64,000 nt of DNA from a virus (lineage: Duplodnaviria > Caudoviricetes), in IMG/VR virus record IMGVR_UViG_3300034161_000008, positions 128,001 to 192,000 of that record; one strand, written 5' to 3'. Position numbers and translations under genes: made by a program. Shown here piece after piece: positions 5,455 to 44,729 of the stretch; the stretch's first letter is position 1; the number at the start of each line of letters is the position of its first letter. A model generated the notes under the pieces. The model was given only the letters and a program-made list of their open reading frames with translations, was not told where the DNA came from and did not search any database.

Positions 5455-6063
5455 TTACGTATCCCTTCGTGTGGCGACAGCGATGCCAGGTTCATGGAAA
5501 GATTCCCACTCAACATAGTGGGTAATATGGCGCTCATCTTTACCGATGAACTCTCCATCGATCGCAGATTCAATTTCTTGCAGGGCGTGTCTGAGGCCAT
5601 TGACACTGTGGGGGTCAAAGTCCTCGATTTTGTGACTGTGGGCATTTGGGTCATGAGCCTTTATGAACTCACCCTCAAGAGCAGGCTTGGGAGCCAATCG
5701 CTTCGCCTTTGCCGAAAGGGCGAATACGTCGATACCACCACTAGGCAAAAAGAACTTGCGCATATCGGCAGGCGGACCTTGCTCGAACTCGCCTTCCAAT
5801 GCGTTGTGGTTTGCAACGATCTCTTTCTTTCGTTCGCGACGCAGCTCAAGGGTTTGAGTAAGGAAGTCATTCAAGGGGATGCGATCTTCGTAGACCTTAA
5901 CTTCCACACCCTTATCTACCAGCTCACCTTCAAGCGTTGCGGGATTGTGGGTCCGCGCAACCAAGGCCACCATCGCATTGAGTGAACGAAAAGGCATATC
6001 AGCCAAAACCTGCGGATCAGTATCCACAGTCCCTTCCAGCGGTGCTTTCGTCAAATCGCCCAC
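5455..6063 (-). CDS. Hypothetical protein (202 aa)
   Basis: GGAGG RBS before GTG 6063. Confidence 0.75.
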   Translation of the reverse strand: MGDLTKAPLEGTVDTDPQVLADMPFRSLNAMVALVARTHNPATLEGELVDKGVEVKVYEDRIPLNDFLTQTLELRRERKKEIVANHNALEGEFEQGPPADMRKFFLPSGGIDVFALSAKAKRLAPKPALEGEFIKAHDPNAHSHKIEDFDPHSVNGLRHALQEIESAIDGEFIGKDERHITHYVEWESFHEPGIAVATRRDT

Positions 6064-6188
6064 GCTTCCTCCAATGCCTTAAAGGCCATGCAAAGTAAAA
6101 CAATAAAGACAACAATACCAATCAGGTACAGCCCGGCAATCACTATGTCGAGAAGGTCTGGCTCTTCGACTGGACCTAAGTCTTTCAT
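6051..6188 (-). CDS. Small single-pass membrane protein (45 aa, MKDLGPVEEPDLLDIVIAGLYLIGIVVFIVLLCMAFKALEEAWAI)
   Basis: Not in ORF track; TAATG overlap with upstream stop; one TM segment; fills the gap. Confidence 0.6.
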   Translation of the reverse strand: MKDLGPVEEPDLLDIVIAGLYLIGIVVFIVLLCMAFKALEEAWAI

Positions 6189-6661
6189 TAATGGTCCTTC
6201 TCACCAGTACGGTGTTTGTGAAGTATCCGATGACCCAGCTCGAACAATGCATTTAGAGCCAATCGCTCTTCGCGCACTTTATTCATGCGAGCTGTAAAGC
6301 CATCGGGATTCCCAGCCTTCCAACGACCATGACCAAAACGCAAAGCTTCTTCACGTTCCATGAAGTCAAAGTACGCGCTGATTGGGCGACGAACTTTACG
6401 CACTAACGACTGACGCTGCCGCCGAACCGGCAAAGTCAAGATGCGATACGTGCCTGGCTCCATCGGCAAGTTGGTCAGCGTGTTGATGTAATCCGTGAAG
6501 CGCTGATTATCATTCCAGTCTTCCCGAGGAACTAGGCTCTTGCGAACGCAGTTCTCCAGGAAGTATTGTGGATTGATTCGACACTCATTTAAAACAGCAG
6601 CCAATTGTTCAGCTGTGAGGTTTGGATCGAACGGATCTACACCTTCCAGGGTAGGGTTCAT
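6188..6661 (-). CDS. Protein with a terminase-large-subunit N-terminal-like segment fused to an unrelated C-terminus
   Basis: NPTLEGVDPFDPNLTAEQLAAVLNECRINPQYFLENCVR resembles the N-terminal region of phiKZ-like TerL (recalled pattern). Confidence 0.6.
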   Translation of the reverse strand: MNPTLEGVDPFDPNLTAEQLAAVLNECRINPQYFLENCVRKSLVPREDWNDNQRFTDYINTLTNLPMEPGTYRILTLPVRRQRQSLVRKVRRPISAYFDFMEREEALRFGHGRWKAGNPDGFTARMNKVREERLALNALFELGHRILHKHRTGEKDH

Positions 6662-6972
6662 TTCACAATCCTTAGTGCTGGGATTCGACGTTCGGGTTGC
6701 TCAGGAACATGAGCGTTGCGCTTTTCCAGGACAGCATGGAAACCCTGCATTGCCTCAGCCATAGTTCCACCATCAACGAACTTGTCGATGATGTCTTTCA
6801 TGTCATCGGGGACAGGGGGAACCACAGTACCGAAAGCCGACTGCTCGCTACGGTGTTGCATGCAACGTTCCGTAGGCGAGTCAGCAAACATGTAACAGTG
6901 GTACTTCTCGCTGCCTTCGTAAGTCATGCGCTTGTAGTCGCACGTCTCGCAGTTATTTGGATTCTTGCTCAT
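6658..6972 (-). CDS. Small Cys/His-rich putative metal-binding protein
   Basis: CETC...HC...CMQH near the N-terminus. Confidence 0.65.
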   Translation of the reverse strand: MSKNPNNCETCDYKRMTYEGSEKYHCYMFADSPTERCMQHRSEQSAFGTVVPPVPDDMKDIIDKFVDGGTMAEAMQGFHAVLEKRNAHVPEQPERRIPALRIVK

Positions 6973-7430: not shown

Positions 7431-7440
7431 GTAATATGTG
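7431..7440 (-). promoter_or_regulatory. Putative phage early promoter (CACATATTAC)
   Basis: Resembles the phiKZ early TATATTAC element; recurs at four other operon starts. Confidence 0.55.
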
Positions 7441-7448
7441 GCCAAAAC

Positions 7449-7480
7449 AAAATAAAAGAGCACTCCCGAAGGAGTGCTCT
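7449..7480 (-). terminator. Intrinsic terminator
   Basis: AGAGCACTCC-TTCG-GGAGTGCTCT perfect stem followed by TTTTATTTT. Confidence 0.85.
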
Positions 7481-7490
7481 CTATGCCCGC

Positions 7491-8843
7491 TTACGCGTCA
7501 GGTGCAACGCCAGCAGGACGCAGCTCAAGCTGCTTAACGCCGATCAGGTCAATGAACTGATCGTTGACCATGGTTTCGCCAATGATGCGCGACCAACGTT
7601 CCAGAGTCGGTTCTTCCAGGATCTTGGTGATCGGATACGTACCGATGAACTTGTCGCTATCGCCGGTGGTTTCAGCACGGATGCCGCGAGGCAGCAGCAC
7701 AAAGCTCACGATGCCGAGGTGGTAGGTGCCAGTCTTCTTCGGGTCTTCGTTGTCGCACAGGAAGCCGGTGAAGCGAGTGGCGTCGGGGTTGGTGAGGATC
7801 GTACGCTTGACATGCTCAGGCACGCTGTAGCCGTCACGCGAGATCAGGGTCAGCTCTTCCATGCGTTCACGGAACACACCGGTCTGGATGGTTTCGAGGA
7901 TGTCTGGACGATTGTCGTCAAACTCAATCGACAGGGCGTCAGCCTTCTCGATGTGGCCACCGATGCCGATCGAACGACCGTTAGCCAGGCGTTGTTCGCC
8001 AGACAGCTTGGTGCGTTCGTACAACACGATTTCCAGGGTATCGGCCAGATCGTCAGCGCCGTACTGGATGATGATGTCGTAGTTGATCAGGTGACGCTGG
8101 GTCGGATCGTTTTCCAGCTGCGCACGCTGGCGGAAGCTGAAGTGGCCAGCGCCGAGTAGGACGAAGTCTTGCAGCGAGATGCCGGTGGTTACGCCGTGCT
8201 TCATGCCCAGGAATTCGTTGACGAACGCTGCGTCAACCGACAGAATCCATTCGGTCTTTTCAGTCGAAGGATTGTGAACACGCTTTACGTATTCGCGCAG
8301 GAATTCCACGTCACGCTTGACAGCCCACGCAGGCAGCTCAACTGGCGGAATACCTTGCCACTCAGCCGGGAACTCAACGAACCCGTCTTTATAGTGGGTC
8401 AGCGTAGGCTCGTTACCACGAGTCAACTGCATGACTTCTTCGACACGTACTGGGGTTTGGATGAGCTCGCCTTGCGAATTCATAGGGAGGATAGGCGTTG
8501 AACGGCGGTTGTAGTTACCACGAACCACTTCCAGCTCAGCAACCCAGCCCGCATTCGCTACGCAACCACGGGACATGAAGAACGAACGCCCGGTCTGCGT
8601 ATCGATGTCGAGGGTCACGCCGACGCCGTCTTTGATTTCGACATCGATGACAATCTTCGGAGCGCGCCCTTCTGGCTGAGGCATCTCGTTGATCTTGGTT
8701 CCCGAGAACAGAACGCCGTCTTTGTCGAAGAGACCAACGAGCTTCACGCTTTCCAGATGGTCAGTGACGTCGCTATCAGGACCTTCCGTCAGGGTGAAAA
8801 TGCTGAATGGCTTACCCGATTCGATTTTAACTAGCAACTTCAT
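7491..8843 (-). CDS. Nudix/MutT-like phosphoesterase (COG4112-like C-terminal domain) with unknown N-terminal domain
   Basis: EQRLANGRSIGIGGHIE, GVFRERMEE and GFLCD...GTYHLGIV match the COG4112 pattern. Confidence 0.7.
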   Translation of the reverse strand: MKLLVKIESGKPFSIFTLTEGPDSDVTDHLESVKLVGLFDKDGVLFSGTKINEMPQPEGRAPKIVIDVEIKDGVGVTLDIDTQTGRSFFMSRGCVANAGWVAELEVVRGNYNRRSTPILPMNSQGELIQTPVRVEEVMQLTRGNEPTLTHYKDGFVEFPAEWQGIPPVELPAWAVKRDVEFLREYVKRVHNPSTEKTEWILSVDAAFVNEFLGMKHGVTTGISLQDFVLLGAGHFSFRQRAQLENDPTQRHLINYDIIIQYGADDLADTLEIVLYERTKLSGEQRLANGRSIGIGGHIEKADALSIEFDDNRPDILETIQTGVFRERMEELTLISRDGYSVPEHVKRTILTNPDATRFTGFLCDNEDPKKTGTYHLGIVSFVLLPRGIRAETTGDSDKFIGTYPITKILEEPTLERWSRIIGETMVNDQFIDLIGVKQLELRPAGVAPDA

Positions 8844-9598
8844 TACTTGTTTCCTTCTTGGCCGAAGATCTTGTTCAGGGTTGCATCCAACCGCTGTTCG
8901 TCTTCTGGAGTGGGTTTTGGTTTACCTTCCATGTCAACGGCGTTAACACGGTCCATTACATTAGTCCAGTCGGTAGAAAAAGACGGACGCATTCCAGCGT
9001 TGTACGACACGCGACCCCAGAACGATTCAACGTGCTGGTATTCGGTGTATTGCCAGCCCGGCGTAACTTCCTCGCCGGTGCCTTCTGCGAACAGCGGCAG
9101 GTAGCTGGTTTTGGAGTGGACGATGAATTGCTTGAGATCGAACTCCGGGAAGTACGAATCGGCCATCGGTACGTTCAGATCGATACGTGACATGAACACG
9201 TAGTCAGCCAACGGAAGTGCTTCGCGATAAAGCTTCTCACCACCAATCACCATCACCACTGGAGGGGCGTTCACGTTGATCAAATCGCGCGGCATGCGAC
9301 TCGCAACTGCCACCGCACCAGCCAGGGCTTCTGCGTAAGTTGGAAACACGATCCAGCCCGCTTCAACAAACGCACCCACGTCGCGATCAGCCACTACAAA
9401 GCACGTACGGTCTTTGAGGGCAGGGCCGATAGACTTGGCAGTGTTAGCCCCAGCAATCACCGCACGCCCCATGGTGAGCTTCTGGAAGTGCTTCATCTCA
9501 GAAGGTACTCGCCACGGCAACGTGTTCTTGTAGCCGATGACGTTATCGTTGGCGCAAGCCACTACTAATGCAACTTCGTAAGCTTTGGACATATTCAC
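8843..9598 (-). CDS. folA: Dihydrofolate reductase with C-terminal extension
   Basis: VVACANDNVIGYKNTLPW, EMKHFQKLT, VMVIGGEKLY, ADSYFPEFD. Confidence 0.92.
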   Translation of the reverse strand: MNMSKAYEVALVVACANDNVIGYKNTLPWRVPSEMKHFQKLTMGRAVIAGANTAKSIGPALKDRTCFVVADRDVGAFVEAGWIVFPTYAEALAGAVAVASRMPRDLINVNAPPVVMVIGGEKLYREALPLADYVFMSRIDLNVPMADSYFPEFDLKQFIVHSKTSYLPLFAEGTGEEVTPGWQYTEYQHVESFWGRVSYNAGMRPSFSTDWTNVMDRVNAVDMEGKPKPTPEDEQRLDATLNKIFGQEGNK

Positions 9599-11013
9599 AC
9601 CTGTAAGTGTTGACCGATAATCGAACGCGCTTCTTCTTGCTGCGCTTGCGTACCTACCGTACCCATCACGGCTAGAACCTGCAAGTCAGTCTGAGTCAGA
9701 TTGCGTTTGATCAATCGGTGTGGAATGGAGTTAACGAAGCCTTCGGCATCATCACGGTGTTCTAAGAAAAGAGCCTGTAGATCACAACCAGCGATTGGGA
9801 GAAACTCAGCCTGCACCGAACTGAAACGTAGGTGGAAGTCTGGGAACATCAGCCAGAGGTATTCGAGGATCTCGTCGTGACCCAGATAAGGTACTTCGTA
9901 CGTGTAGTCCACGCGTCCTTTACGAGTCAGTGCTTCGTCGATCTGATCCAGATGATTGGTGGTCATGAAGATCACTGTTTCATCCAGCGAGACCACGCCG
10001 TCGAGGGTGTTGAGGATCTTGGTCAGTGAAAGCATTTCGAAGTCCAGATCCGAGAAATTGAAGCTTTCCTTGGGTTGTAGTTCCGCCGAGCCGAGGACGT
10101 TCTTATCGCCAGGCTTTGCTCGCTCCAGCTTTGGACGGGCTGGCGCACGAGCCTTGGTAGCCTTAGCGCTGTCGAAGTCTTCGATGATGATGAAACAGTT
10201 TTTGGGGGCAGACTGCAAGGCCAGTTCAAAGGCAGAGTCAGACATGCCAGCAATGTTCAGCGTACAGATACTCTTACCGTAATAAGAGGCCAGTGCTTTG
10301 AGCAAGCTGGTCTTACCTGTGCCGGGACGGCCGTGCAGAATATAAGTCTGCTTGTAGGGCATCCCTTTGCTGGTGTACCACTCGCGTCCTTTAAAGAACG
10401 AGTCGAGGTTCTTGAGCAGCTCGGCTTTGAGCTTTTTATCGATGATCACTGTGTTCAGTGGTCGCTTAGGGATCTCAGTCAGCCATCGCCATTCGTCCTT
10501 GAAGACGTAGATGCCGATCTTGGAGCTGTCTGGTTTGTGGCGGAAGTCTTCGATCAGGTTCAGGATCGCTTGACGATTACGCCCCAACACACGGATCTTC
10601 ATCTCGTGCTTTTCTTTCTCGGAACCCGAAGACTCCAAGCGGCGCTTCTCGAACCAAAAGAAGTGCCCACGATAAAAGAAAAAATGAGACCCGAACCCAG
10701 GTCCCACCACGACAGTCTCGCCATCCCAGCCTCGACCATCGAGGGAGAGATAACGAGACCATCGTGACCAGCGGCTAGCAGTGAACCAGTTCATGAAGCC
10801 ATTGAACTGATGCGAGTTGCCTTCGTAGCCGCTGTTGTTCATTGTAAGCGTAGTGGTGAACTGGTTGAGGAAGAACGACCCAACCTTACGCGGAATGTCC
10901 CGCAACGCCCAGGTGAGCACTGTGAGTCCCCACAGTGAGATTGCTCCGGCGATGATCGGGCTGGTTTTCGCCAAGAGTTGAATCTGGTCGAACAGCGACT
11001 GGATGAGTTCCAT
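9595..11013 (-). CDS. BCS1-like membrane-anchored AAA+ ATPase
   Basis: N-terminal TM, BCS1_N-like PGFGSHFF, KRPLNTVII, WYTSKGMPYKQTYILHGRPGTGKT (Walker A), IIIEDFD (Walker B), TTNH, RKGRVD. Confidence 0.88.
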   Translation of the reverse strand: MELIQSLFDQIQLLAKTSPIIAGAISLWGLTVLTWALRDIPRKVGSFFLNQFTTTLTMNNSGYEGNSHQFNGFMNWFTASRWSRWSRYLSLDGRGWDGETVVVGPGFGSHFFFYRGHFFWFEKRRLESSGSEKEKHEMKIRVLGRNRQAILNLIEDFRHKPDSSKIGIYVFKDEWRWLTEIPKRPLNTVIIDKKLKAELLKNLDSFFKGREWYTSKGMPYKQTYILHGRPGTGKTSLLKALASYYGKSICTLNIAGMSDSAFELALQSAPKNCFIIIEDFDSAKATKARAPARPKLERAKPGDKNVLGSAELQPKESFNFSDLDFEMLSLTKILNTLDGVVSLDETVIFMTTNHLDQIDEALTRKGRVDYTYEVPYLGHDEILEYLWLMFPDFHLRFSSVQAEFLPIAGCDLQALFLEHRDDAEGFVNSIPHRLIKRNLTQTDLQVLAVMGTVGTQAQQEEARSIIGQHLQV

Positions 11014-44718: not shown

Positions 44719-44729
44719 GGTAATATGTG
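44705..44729 (-). promoter_or_regulatory. Putative early promoter (CACATATTAC...GAGCATTAG)
   Basis: Matches 7431 and 16865 motifs. Confidence 0.55.

What the first reader, a model, noticed from the sequence alone, without database searches (positions are those of the whole stretch)
6188..6661. Stand-alone terminase N-terminal-like fragment in the early region: possible decoy
Seen: residues 1-40, MNPTLEGVDPFDPNLTAEQLAAVLNECRINPQYFLENCVR, with no Walker motifs or nuclease domain after them. Recalled: phiKZ-like large terminases contain L-x-GVDP-x-x-P-x-LT-x-EQ...EC-x-x-NP-x-YF before the ATPase domain. Known: Avs STAND NTPases sense terminase. Inference: an early-expressed terminase mimic that titrates a sensor or modulates packaging.
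Basis: partly seen in the sequence, partly recalled or inferred. Interest (0 to 1): 0.62.

Follow-up and report, generated by a model that had tools for sequence, protein, structure and literature searches.

The report
Terminase cap module on accessory protein
A nucleus-forming jumbo phage carries a small, selectively maintained gene whose first 43 residues copy the N-terminal cap of its own DNA-packaging enzyme; this cap turns up as a shuffled module on many unrelated accessory proteins of such phages, and its function is unknown.

Summary
Window 6188-6661 (minus strand) encodes a 157-aa protein, ORF157. Residues 2-43 are a true paralogue of residues 48-89 of the phage's own intact 741-aa TerL, which lies 105 kb away (hhalign E 1.7e-16). 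Nothing beyond residue 43 is TerL-like.

In a confident TerL model this segment is a loop plus helix-turn-helix that caps the ATPase fold upstream of the P-loop.

ORF157 is a working gene (dN/dS 0.14). It is modular: an acidic TerL-cap head and a basic C-terminal domain. In a syntenic relative that C-terminal domain carries a different head and a fused membrane helix. Here the helix is a separate, translationally coupled 45-aa ORF. Four allelic forms of this locus exist among close relatives.

The same cap module, in a distinct stand-alone subtype, heads about a dozen unrelated proteins in jumbo phages that also keep an intact TerL.

The gene sits in a unit that opens with a terminator and a phiKZ-early-like promoter motif.

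The Avs-decoy reading is unsupported, because known terminase sensors need the ATPase core. My best guess is a non-catalytic adaptor that mimics the TerL cap. The mechanism is inferred, not shown.

This scan found whole-ATPase-domain terminase paralogues on other phage DNA, but no cap-only form.

The parts
6188..6661 (-). ORF157: 157-aa protein (P0001), ATG at 6661, TAA at 6188-6190
   Evidence: dN/dS 0.14 against a 93% relative.
6533..6661 (-). Residues 1-43: TerL N-cap module (loop plus helix-turn-helix), acidic, pI 4.4
   Evidence: phrog_2 E 2e-8. Own TerL E 9e-15. hhalign E 1.7e-16. Stand-alone subtype features K20/L24 and no W32/R36/E37/P42. pI.
6191..6427 (-). Residues 79-157: basic C-terminal domain (pI 11.3) containing RWKAGNP, unrelated to TerL
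   Evidence: 43% identical to P0008 across the ORF157/ORF45 junction, E 1e-26. dN/dS 0.08 for residues 44-157. pI.
6051..6188 (-). ORF45: 45-aa protein with one hydrophobic helix. Its ATG overlaps the ORF157 stop (TAATG).
   Evidence: It is fused to the ORF157-type C-terminal domain in P0008 and deleted in the P0002 relative L022.
5455..6063 (-). ORF202: downstream gene with five xLEGE[FL]-like repeats. It is the fusion partner of the motif in allele P0003.
6658..6972 (-). ORF104: Cys-rich upstream gene whose stop overlaps the ORF157 start (ATGA)
   Evidence: A homologue end precedes P0008 in the syntenic L017.
7455..7482 (-). Intrinsic-terminator-like hairpin (12 pairs plus T-run) ending the upstream unit
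7431..7440 (-). CACATATTAC: phiKZ-early-like promoter motif at the head of the unit that contains ORF157
   Evidence: Genome-wide pattern.

Best explanation
ORF157 is a functional, non-catalytic accessory protein of a chimallivirus, probably expressed early, and it is assembled from modules. Its head (residues 1-43) is an exapted copy of the N-terminal cap of the large terminase ATPase domain. This copy belongs to a distinct stand-alone subtype that circulates among jumbo phages on unrelated proteins. Its tail (residues 79-157) is a basic domain. In a syntenic relative the tail is tail-anchored in the membrane by a helix that here is the translationally coupled ORF45. I infer that the head is a protein-interaction module presenting the same surface as the TerL cap. 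ORF157 would then bind, and so titrate or tether (possibly at the membrane), whatever ligand recognises that cap. Shown: the homology, its limits, the modularity, purifying selection, the allelic variation and recurrence in other phages. Inferred: the timing of expression, the membrane association and the whole mimicry mechanism.
For: - Homology is limited to 43 residues.
- There are only two copies in the genome, and TerL is intact with its own copy.
- The TerL model (pLDDT 91) places the segment as a loop plus helices 63-75 and 77-84, ahead of beta1 and the P-loop. This corresponds to the first residues of the T7, PhiV-1 and P74-26 TerL chains and lies within the region aligned to T4 gp17.
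- Purifying selection: omega is 0.14 overall, 0.20 for the head and 0.08 for the rest.
- P0008 occupies the same syntenic slot with another head and a fused TM helix.
- The P0003 allele keeps only the head, fused to ORF202, in three contigs from at least two samples.
- The TM helix is deleted in L022.
- The motif heads about a dozen unrelated proteins.
- Noxifer, G001, pEa_SNUABM_11 and vB_pir03 each hold one extra copy plus an intact TerL.
- Stand-alone copies share K20/L24 and lack the TerL-invariant W32, R36, E37 and P42.
- A promoter motif follows a terminator at the head of the unit.
Against: - No binding partner is known.
- Most conserved polar residues of the module look like helix caps and turns, so its conservation may reflect fold maintenance only and not a shared ligand.
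- The TM helix and the C-terminal domain are each dispensable in some relatives, so membrane tethering cannot be essential to the head's role.
- If the gene is early, TerL and other late packaging proteins are not yet present when it is first made.
- The genomic contexts of other module-bearing proteins (helicase, depolymerase, chimallin neighbourhoods) show no common theme.
Confidence: 0.4

Rival explanations
1. The TerL-derived head is only a convenient small folding unit. The protein's activity lies in the basic C-terminal domain (membrane-proximal or nucleic-acid binding) and has nothing to do with terminase, packaging or terminase sensors.
For: The C-terminal part is the more strongly constrained (omega 0.08 against 0.20). 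It occurs with a completely different head in the syntenic allele P0008. It has pI 11.3. The residues lost in stand-alone copies are TerL-specific ones. The neighbourhoods of other module carriers are unrelated to packaging.
Against: The same 43-residue module is kept at 42-56% identity on about a dozen otherwise unrelated proteins, including its long loop. The P0003 allele keeps the head while discarding the C-terminal domain. Both facts are hard to explain if the head had no activity of its own.
Confidence: 0.28
2. The module is a portable targeting tag. A chimallivirus-specific machine that handles TerL (the nuclear import system Imp1/PicA, or the ChmB/portal docking site on the shell) recognises this surface, and accessory proteins bearing it are delivered to the same place.
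For: Reviews state that import into the phage nucleus relies on surface recognition motifs on the cargo proteins rather than terminal signals (PMC13282480). This phage, Noxifer, G001 and vB_pir03 all encode chimallin. P0012 lies 3 kb from chimallin. The module sits on many unrelated proteins, as a tag would.
Against: I found no published evidence on where TerL localises or that this segment is an import determinant. Helices 63-84 of the module are a universal part of terminase ATPase folds, including those of non-nuclear phages. The membrane-anchored allele is hard to reconcile with import. The Wellingtonvirus record gave no chimallin match with PF25677 (inconclusive).
Confidence: 0.1
3. One reading: an early decoy that titrates a host terminase sensor (Avs-type or other).
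For: Early expression is plausible. Terminase is a known trigger of Avs1-3 and Upx. The locus is hypervariable among close relatives, as conflict loci often are.
Against: Avs2 buries about 2830 A^2 on the folded, ATP-bound ATPase domain. Avs3 reads active-site residues and ATP. Upx is modelled as threading core beta-strands. Most Avs families envelop the target core. ORF157 carries none of these elements. The terminase paralogue T4 vs.8 activates EcAvs2 rather than blocking it. Avs5, which acts against jumbo phages, senses JADA and showed no direct interaction with TerL. Selection on the head is purifying, not diversifying.
Confidence: 0.07
4. Interference with a co-infecting related phage: the head poisons the competitor's packaging machinery by occupying a site meant for its TerL cap.
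For: The head is about as similar to foreign TerLs (61-64% to EL and Asesino) as to its own (my residue count over positions 2-40 of the alignment gives about 24/39). The gene is probably early and non-essential, and the locus is variable.
Against: Nothing distinguishes self from competitor, so the phage would poison itself. No data on competition exist.
Confidence: 0.07
5. It is not a gene in its own right: either a displaced or intron-separated 5' exon of TerL, or a decaying relic of a recombination accident.
For: Some TerL genes in the databases are interrupted right after this motif (P0014, P0016, P0019 and L014).
Against: The phage's TerL is one uninterrupted 741-aa frame with its own copy of the motif. 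ORF157 lacks the 46 TerL residues that precede the motif. dN/dS is 0.14, with 27 synonymous against 15 non-synonymous changes. The same 157-aa protein is found in two independent metagenomes.
Confidence: 0.02

Closest known systems
Large terminase subunit of phiKZ-like phages (phrog_2; structural relatives T4 gp17 2O0H/3CPE, PhiV-1 TerL 8DGC, P74-26 TerL 4ZNL)
   Same: Residues 2-43 are homologous to the loop plus helix-turn-helix that caps the ATPase domain.
   Different: No P-loop, no Walker B, no beta-sheet core, no nuclease domain and none of the first 46 TerL residues. The TerL-invariant W, RE and P of the cap are replaced. It is not a terminase.
Stand-alone terminase ATPase-domain paralogues: T4 vs.8 (PMC13601566), the 'truncated large terminase' of RaK2-like phages and CBB_274 (PMC5259590), and the coliphage 186 W type
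   Same: An extra terminase-derived gene beside an intact TerL, with unknown function.
   Different: Those keep the whole ATPase domain or most of it. vs.8 has Walker A and B, and the RaK2-type copy has an adjacent gene number to TerL (CBB_274/CBB_275). ORF157 keeps only the 43-residue cap, fused to an unrelated domain, 105 kb from TerL.
vB_pir03 321-aa protein / phrog_32359 (annotated as 'terminase large subunit', 210-position profile)
   Same: A second TerL N-terminal copy in a chimallin-encoding phage that has an intact TerL. ORF157 hits the same PHROG weakly (E 2.4e-5).
   Different: The pir03 protein spans TerL residues 16-185, keeps the TerL-type W and RE, and has a P-loop with Lys changed to Arg. 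It looks like an evolutionary intermediate. ORF157 is the minimal form.
NOXIFER_119 family (157-aa hypothetical proteins of Noxifer-like phages; P0004, P0027, L006, L009)
   Same: A stand-alone cap module at the N-terminus, with the same stand-alone subtype residues and the same length.
   Different: The C-terminal two thirds are unrelated to ORF157. The gene follows, and overlaps by 19 nt, a DnaB-type helicase gene.
P0008 (177-aa tail-anchored protein in the syntenic slot of a relative)
   Same: 43% identity across the ORF157 C-terminal domain plus ORF45, with the same neighbours.
   Different: A different 50-residue head without the TerL motif, and the membrane helix is fused rather than a separate ORF.

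Membership tests
Large terminase subunit (TerL) | N-terminal cap segment of the ATPase domain | tested here: met
   hhalign E 1.7e-16, ORF157 2-43 against TerL 48-89. phrog_2 E 2e-8.
Large terminase subunit (TerL) | Walker A P-loop (RQxGK[ST]) and the ATPase beta-sheet core | tested here: not met
   No G-K-[ST] in the sequence. The alignment beyond residue 43 has near-zero confidence. No Pfam terminase domain.
Large terminase subunit (TerL) | C-terminal RNase H-like nuclease domain | tested here: not met
   The protein ends at residue 157. There are no Pfam or PHROG hits beyond the cap.
Stand-alone terminase ATPase-domain paralogues (T4 vs.8, RaK2-type truncated terminase, 186 W) | Retains the ATPase-domain fold (with or without active Walker motifs) | tested here: not met
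   Only 43 residues are TerL-like. The single-sequence fold of the rest is helical and of low confidence.
Stand-alone terminase ATPase-domain paralogues (T4 vs.8, RaK2-type truncated terminase, 186 W) | Coexists with an intact TerL in the same genome | tested here: met
   Intact 741-aa TerL at genome 27367-29592.
Small terminase subunit (TerS) | Match to a TerS family, or position beside TerL | tested here: inconclusive
   No TerS family among Pfam or PHROG hits even at E up to 10. The gene lies 105 kb from TerL. TerS families are very diverse, so absence of a hit is not decisive.
Ligand or decoy of terminase-sensing Avs1-3 / Upx | Presents the folded ATPase core with its nucleotide site (Avs2, Avs3) or the core beta-strands (Upx) | tested here: not met
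   These elements are absent from ORF157. The requirement is taken from PMC13601566 and PMC13581612. Binding itself was not tested.
P0008-type tail-anchored protein | Homologous basic domain containing RWKAGNP | tested here: met
   43% identity, E 1e-26, in a syntenic position.
P0008-type tail-anchored protein | C-terminal transmembrane helix in the same polypeptide | tested here: not met
   A stop codon separates ORF157 from the helix-bearing ORF45 (TAATG overlap). The same ORF157 stop is present in the independent contigs L022 and L023.

The most novel reading that the evidence does not exclude
The 43-residue TerL cap is a portable address tag of nucleus-forming phages. A conserved phage machine that must handle TerL (the Imp1/PicA import system or the ChmB/portal docking site) recognises this surface. 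Accessory proteins that acquired the module are thereby sent to, or compete for, the same site.
Probability: 0.1. Interest if true: 0.8.

Novelty: new variant of a known kind. Interest (0 to 1): 0.48.

Why it matters
Extra terminase-derived genes are known (T4 vs.8, RaK2-type truncated terminase, 186 W), but all of those keep the ATPase domain.

In ORF157 only the 43-residue cap survives. The same cap heads about a dozen unrelated proteins in jumbo phages, each of which keeps an intact TerL wherever the whole genome could be checked. A piece of a motor enzyme reused as an independent module implies that the cap has a function of its own: a ligand, a docking site or a targeting role. Nothing is known about that function even for TerL itself in phiKZ-like phages. 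I know of no small terminase described for these phages, and how terminase meets DNA and capsids at the nuclear shell is an open question.

The family gives a small, testable handle on that question. If the function turns out to be trivial, the result is still a useful annotation warning: PHROG and GenBank records label several of these proteins 'terminase large subunit' although they are not terminases.

Tried and rejected
1. Complex prediction of ORF157 with the TerL ATPase domain (residues 1-415) gave no verdict: score 0.00 in both runs and controls not folded. It is evidence neither for nor against binding.
2. The single-sequence AlphaFold2 model of ORF157 is poor (pLDDT 46), so no fold search was made with it.
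3. A sequence search of the PDB found nothing, either with TerL or with ORF157 (only chance-level hits).
4. The ESM Atlas look-up gave no usable feature hit, and all structural matches had TM under 0.42.
5. I suspected from reading the sequences that ORF157 and the Noxifer-type proteins extend into a degenerate Q-motif and Walker A strand (ILTLPVRRQ against ILIQIRQTGKS). Greedy hhalign gives near-zero confidence there, so I dropped the claim.
6. An excess of differences in the head between ORF157 and P0002 (7/43 against 4/114, Fisher p 0.01) suggested diversifying selection. The codon analysis shows that both dS and dN are higher there and omega is 0.20. This is a different divergence history of the segment, not positive selection.
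7. The exact phiKZ early consensus TATATTAC has 0 matches in the window. TACWTATTAC with one mismatch gives 2 matches against 2.2 expected, so the window alone is not significant. Only the genome-wide positional pattern gives it weight.
8. The split-TerL and intron-exon reading was rejected because TerL is intact.
9. The word-indexed homologue search found only two relatives. The exhaustive search was needed to find the rest.
10. The literature searches found no description of cap-only terminase modules.

Full report
**What is there**

Pfam finds no domain. PHROGs matches residues 2-43 to positions 106-152 of the 807-position terminase large subunit family phrog_2 (E 2e-8), and more weakly to phrog_32359.

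The window is part of a complete 218,436-bp phage genome with direct terminal repeats. The phage encodes chimallin, so it is a phiKZ-like, nucleus-forming phage.

**Relation to the phage's own terminase**

The genome has one full-length TerL, an uninterrupted 741-aa frame at genome 27367-29592, about 105 kb from ORF157. TerL carries its own copy of the motif at residues 47-94.

- ORF157 residues 1-48 align to this stretch with 25/48 identities, E 9e-15.
- A motif HMM run over all six frames of the genome finds these two copies and nothing else.
- ORF157 is therefore not a displaced exon of a split terminase. It is a second copy of one segment.

Profile-profile comparison of the stand-alone proteins with 65 TerL ATPase domains limits the significant homology to ORF157 2-43 against TerL 48-89 (probability 98.7%, E 1.7e-16). 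When the alignment is forced further, its confidence drops to about zero. My impression of a degenerate Walker A strand is therefore not supported.

**What the segment is in TerL**

An AlphaFold2 model of TerL residues 1-415, built on 65 homologues, is confident (pLDDT 91, pTM 0.85). The motif is well ordered and runs in this order:

- a long loop (residues 47-62, GVDPxDPNLT);
- helix 63-75, a turn, and helix 77-84;
- short strands and helix 102-112;
- beta1 (116-120) and the P-loop.

Structural alignment gives these matches:

- T4 gp17 ATPase domain: Z 21.8, model residues 31-358.
- T7 TerL threading model: Z 22.3, model residues 65-357 against chain residues 1-270.
- P74-26 TerL: Z 19.6, starting at model residue 74.
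- Avs3-bound PhiV-1 TerL: Z 16.1, model residues 60-354 against chain residues 2-292.

The two helices are thus the N-terminal cap found in all these terminase ATPase folds. DEAD-box helicase chains in the same list begin to align at about this position; placing their Q-motif there is from memory, not a tool result. The segment is part of the ATPase domain, not a region before it.

**ORF157 is a working, modular gene**

A 93% identical protein (P0002) occurs in two independent metagenome contigs. Codon comparison gives 27 synonymous and 15 non-synonymous changes:

| Region | dN/dS |
|---|---|
| whole protein | 0.14 |
| head (residues 1-43) | 0.20 |
| rest (residues 44-157) | 0.08 |

. Both dS and dN are higher in the head. 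This points to a separate history of that segment rather than positive selection.

The head is acidic (pI 4.4) and residues 79-157 are very basic (pI 11.3).

The exhaustive search found one protein, P0008 (177 aa), that matches only the C-terminal half. P0008 aligns continuously across ORF157 residues 80-157 and then across the 45-aa ORF that follows in the window (43% identity, E 1e-26). That ORF, ORF45 (6051-6188), consists of little more than one hydrophobic helix, and its ATG overlaps the ORF157 stop (TAATG).

The P0008 contig is syntenic with the window. It holds an ORF104 homologue, then P0008, then an ORF202 homologue, then a phrog_8785 homologue. P0008 has a different 50-residue head without the TerL motif.

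Four alleles of this one locus therefore exist among close relatives:

- this phage: ORF157, ORF45 and ORF202 as separate genes;
- the P0002 phage: the helix of ORF45 is cleanly deleted;
- the P0008 phage: another head, with the helix fused;
- P0003: residues 1-40 of the head fused in frame to residues 70-199 of ORF202, seen in three contigs from at least two samples in a fully syntenic 20-kb context.

This is a plastic accessory locus in which the TerL-cap head, the basic domain and the membrane helix behave as separable modules.

**The cap is a shuffled module in jumbo phages**

The exhaustive search (1.84 billion representatives) returned 25 hits. Besides true TerLs and TerL fragments, there are about a dozen short proteins in which the same roughly 43-residue segment is joined to unrelated sequence:

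- the Noxifer-type 157-aa family (P0004, P0027, L006, L009 = NOXIFER_119);
- P0021 and P0026;
- P0012, which lies 3 kb from chimallin and an RNA polymerase subunit;
- P0017, a 431-aa Wellingtonvirus protein with the motif near its C-terminus, upstream of a depolymerase gene;
- P0010, P0011, P0022, P0005, P0006/P0009 and P0023.

In four phage genomes that could be searched whole, there are exactly two copies: one in an intact TerL frame (714-742 aa) and one extra. Three of these encode chimallin by PF25677. The fourth gave no match, which is inconclusive.

The extra copy of vB_pir03 is longer. It spans TerL residues 16-185, keeps the TerL-type W and RE, and has GKS changed to GRS in the P-loop. 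It looks like an intermediate between a whole-domain paralogue and the minimal module.

Column statistics separate the stand-alone modules from 65 TerL caps. Positions 2-35 are conserved in both. The TerL-invariant W32, R36, E37, A39 and P42 are absent from all stand-alone copies. Instead, most stand-alone copies have K20 and L24 on one face of the first helix (78% and 72%). ORF157 itself has L20, while P0002 and P0003 have K20. This favours one circulating stand-alone subtype over repeated fresh capture from the resident TerL.

**Expression context**

ORF157 lies in a tightly packed minus-strand run with overlapping stops and starts: ORF104/ORF157 overlap as ATGA, and ORF157/ORF45 as TAATG. 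A strong terminator-like hairpin at 7482-7455 is followed directly by CACATATTAC (7440-7431) and then by an ATG about 40 nt further on.

In the window alone this motif is no more frequent than chance. Genome-wide, NAC[AT]TATTAC occurs 9 times (about 3 expected by my estimate). Eight copies are on the minus strand, and every copy is 18-83 nt upstream of an ORF. Early transcription is therefore plausible but not shown.

**Mechanism**

What is shown: ORF157 is a selectively maintained protein with no catalytic terminase elements. Its head is a copy of the TerL ATPase cap, and its tail is a basic domain linked, by fusion in a relative and by translational coupling here, to a membrane helix.

What I infer as most likely (confidence about 0.4): the head is a protein-interaction module that presents the TerL-cap surface. 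ORF157 would then bind, and so titrate or tether, a ligand of that cap.

The main rival (about 0.28) is that the head is only a folding unit and the activity lies in the basic domain.

A more novel reading (about 0.1) is that the cap is an address tag for a chimallivirus machine that must handle TerL. Reviews say nuclear import depends on surface recognition motifs on the cargo proteins.

- Avs2 and Avs3 need the folded, ATP-bound ATPase core.
- Upx is modelled as binding core beta-strands.
- Most Avs families envelop the target core.
- Avs5, which acts on jumbo phages, senses JADA and showed no direct interaction with TerL.
- T4 vs.8, a whole-domain terminase paralogue, activates EcAvs2.
- A mimic of a trigger would be expected to trigger the sensor, not block it.

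**Comparison with what is known**

Stand-alone terminase paralogues are documented:

- T4 vs.8 (PMC13601566);
- the 'truncated large terminase' CBB_274 of RaK2-like phages (PMC5259590);
- according to earlier notes of this scan, the coliphage 186 W type (not checked by me).

All of these retain the ATPase domain. I found no description of a cap-only module or of its spread across unrelated proteins. Some carriers are annotated 'terminase large subunit' in GenBank or PHROGs, which is misleading. I class the finding as a new variant of a known kind.

**Verdict**

Interest is moderate (0.48). The phenomenon is real, recurrent and undescribed, but its function is unknown and may prove modest.

Noticed in passing
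window 5455-6063 (-), ORF202: The protein has five repeats of the form x-L/I-E/D-G-E/T-F/L/V (APLEGTV, TLEGELV, ALEGEFE, ALEGEFI, AIDGEFI). The relative in L022 has a roughly 60-residue insertion carrying two more. Its N-terminal APLEGTVDTDP resembles by eye the start of the terminase motif (PTLEGVDPFDP), but the motif HMM does not detect it.
   Followed up: partly
genome-wide; in the window at 7431-7440 (-) and 44720-44729 (-): NAC[AT]TATTAC occurs 9 times in the 218 kb genome (about 3 expected). Eight copies are on the minus strand, and each lies 18-83 nt upstream of an ORF of 51 aa or more. This is a likely phage promoter class resembling the phiKZ early consensus.
   Followed up: partly
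L014:4794-5240 (313 kb IMG/VR contig); proteins P0014, P0016, P0019: Several TerL genes of related phages stop shortly after the cap motif or just before the P-loop although they start with a normal TerL N-terminus. These are probably intron or homing-endonuclease interruptions of TerL near this conserved site.
   Followed up: no
L005:2902-3867 (Vibrio phage vB_pir03): This 321-aa protein is a second TerL N-terminal copy (TerL residues 16-185, hhalign E 2.7e-25) with the P-loop lysine replaced by arginine (GRS). It sits beside an intact 742-aa TerL frame elsewhere in the genome.
   Followed up: partly
L004:2017-3312 (Erwinia phage pEa_SNUABM_11, Wellingtonvirus): This 431-aa protein carries the cap module near its C-terminus (residues 328-372), directly upstream of an EPS-depolymerase tail gene. 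In phage Wellington the feature annotated under the corresponding match is 'terminase large subunit', although the protein has no ATPase or nuclease part.
   Followed up: partly
window 6658-6972 (-), ORF104: A small Cys-rich protein (CxxC near the N-terminus plus further Cys and His) with no family match. It is translationally coupled to ORF157 and conserved in the syntenic relatives.
   Followed up: no
window 9595-11013 (-) and 8843-9598 (-): A BCS1-like AAA ATPase (BCS1_N plus AAA, phrog_7485) lies directly upstream of a dihydrofolate reductase gene, in the unit that ends at the 7482-7455 terminator.
   Followed up: no
protein P0023 (322 aa, metagenomic): The cap module lies at residues 89-131. 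The C-terminal stretch looks by eye like an AlpA/excisionase-type helix-turn-helix. This was not tested with any tool.
   Followed up: no
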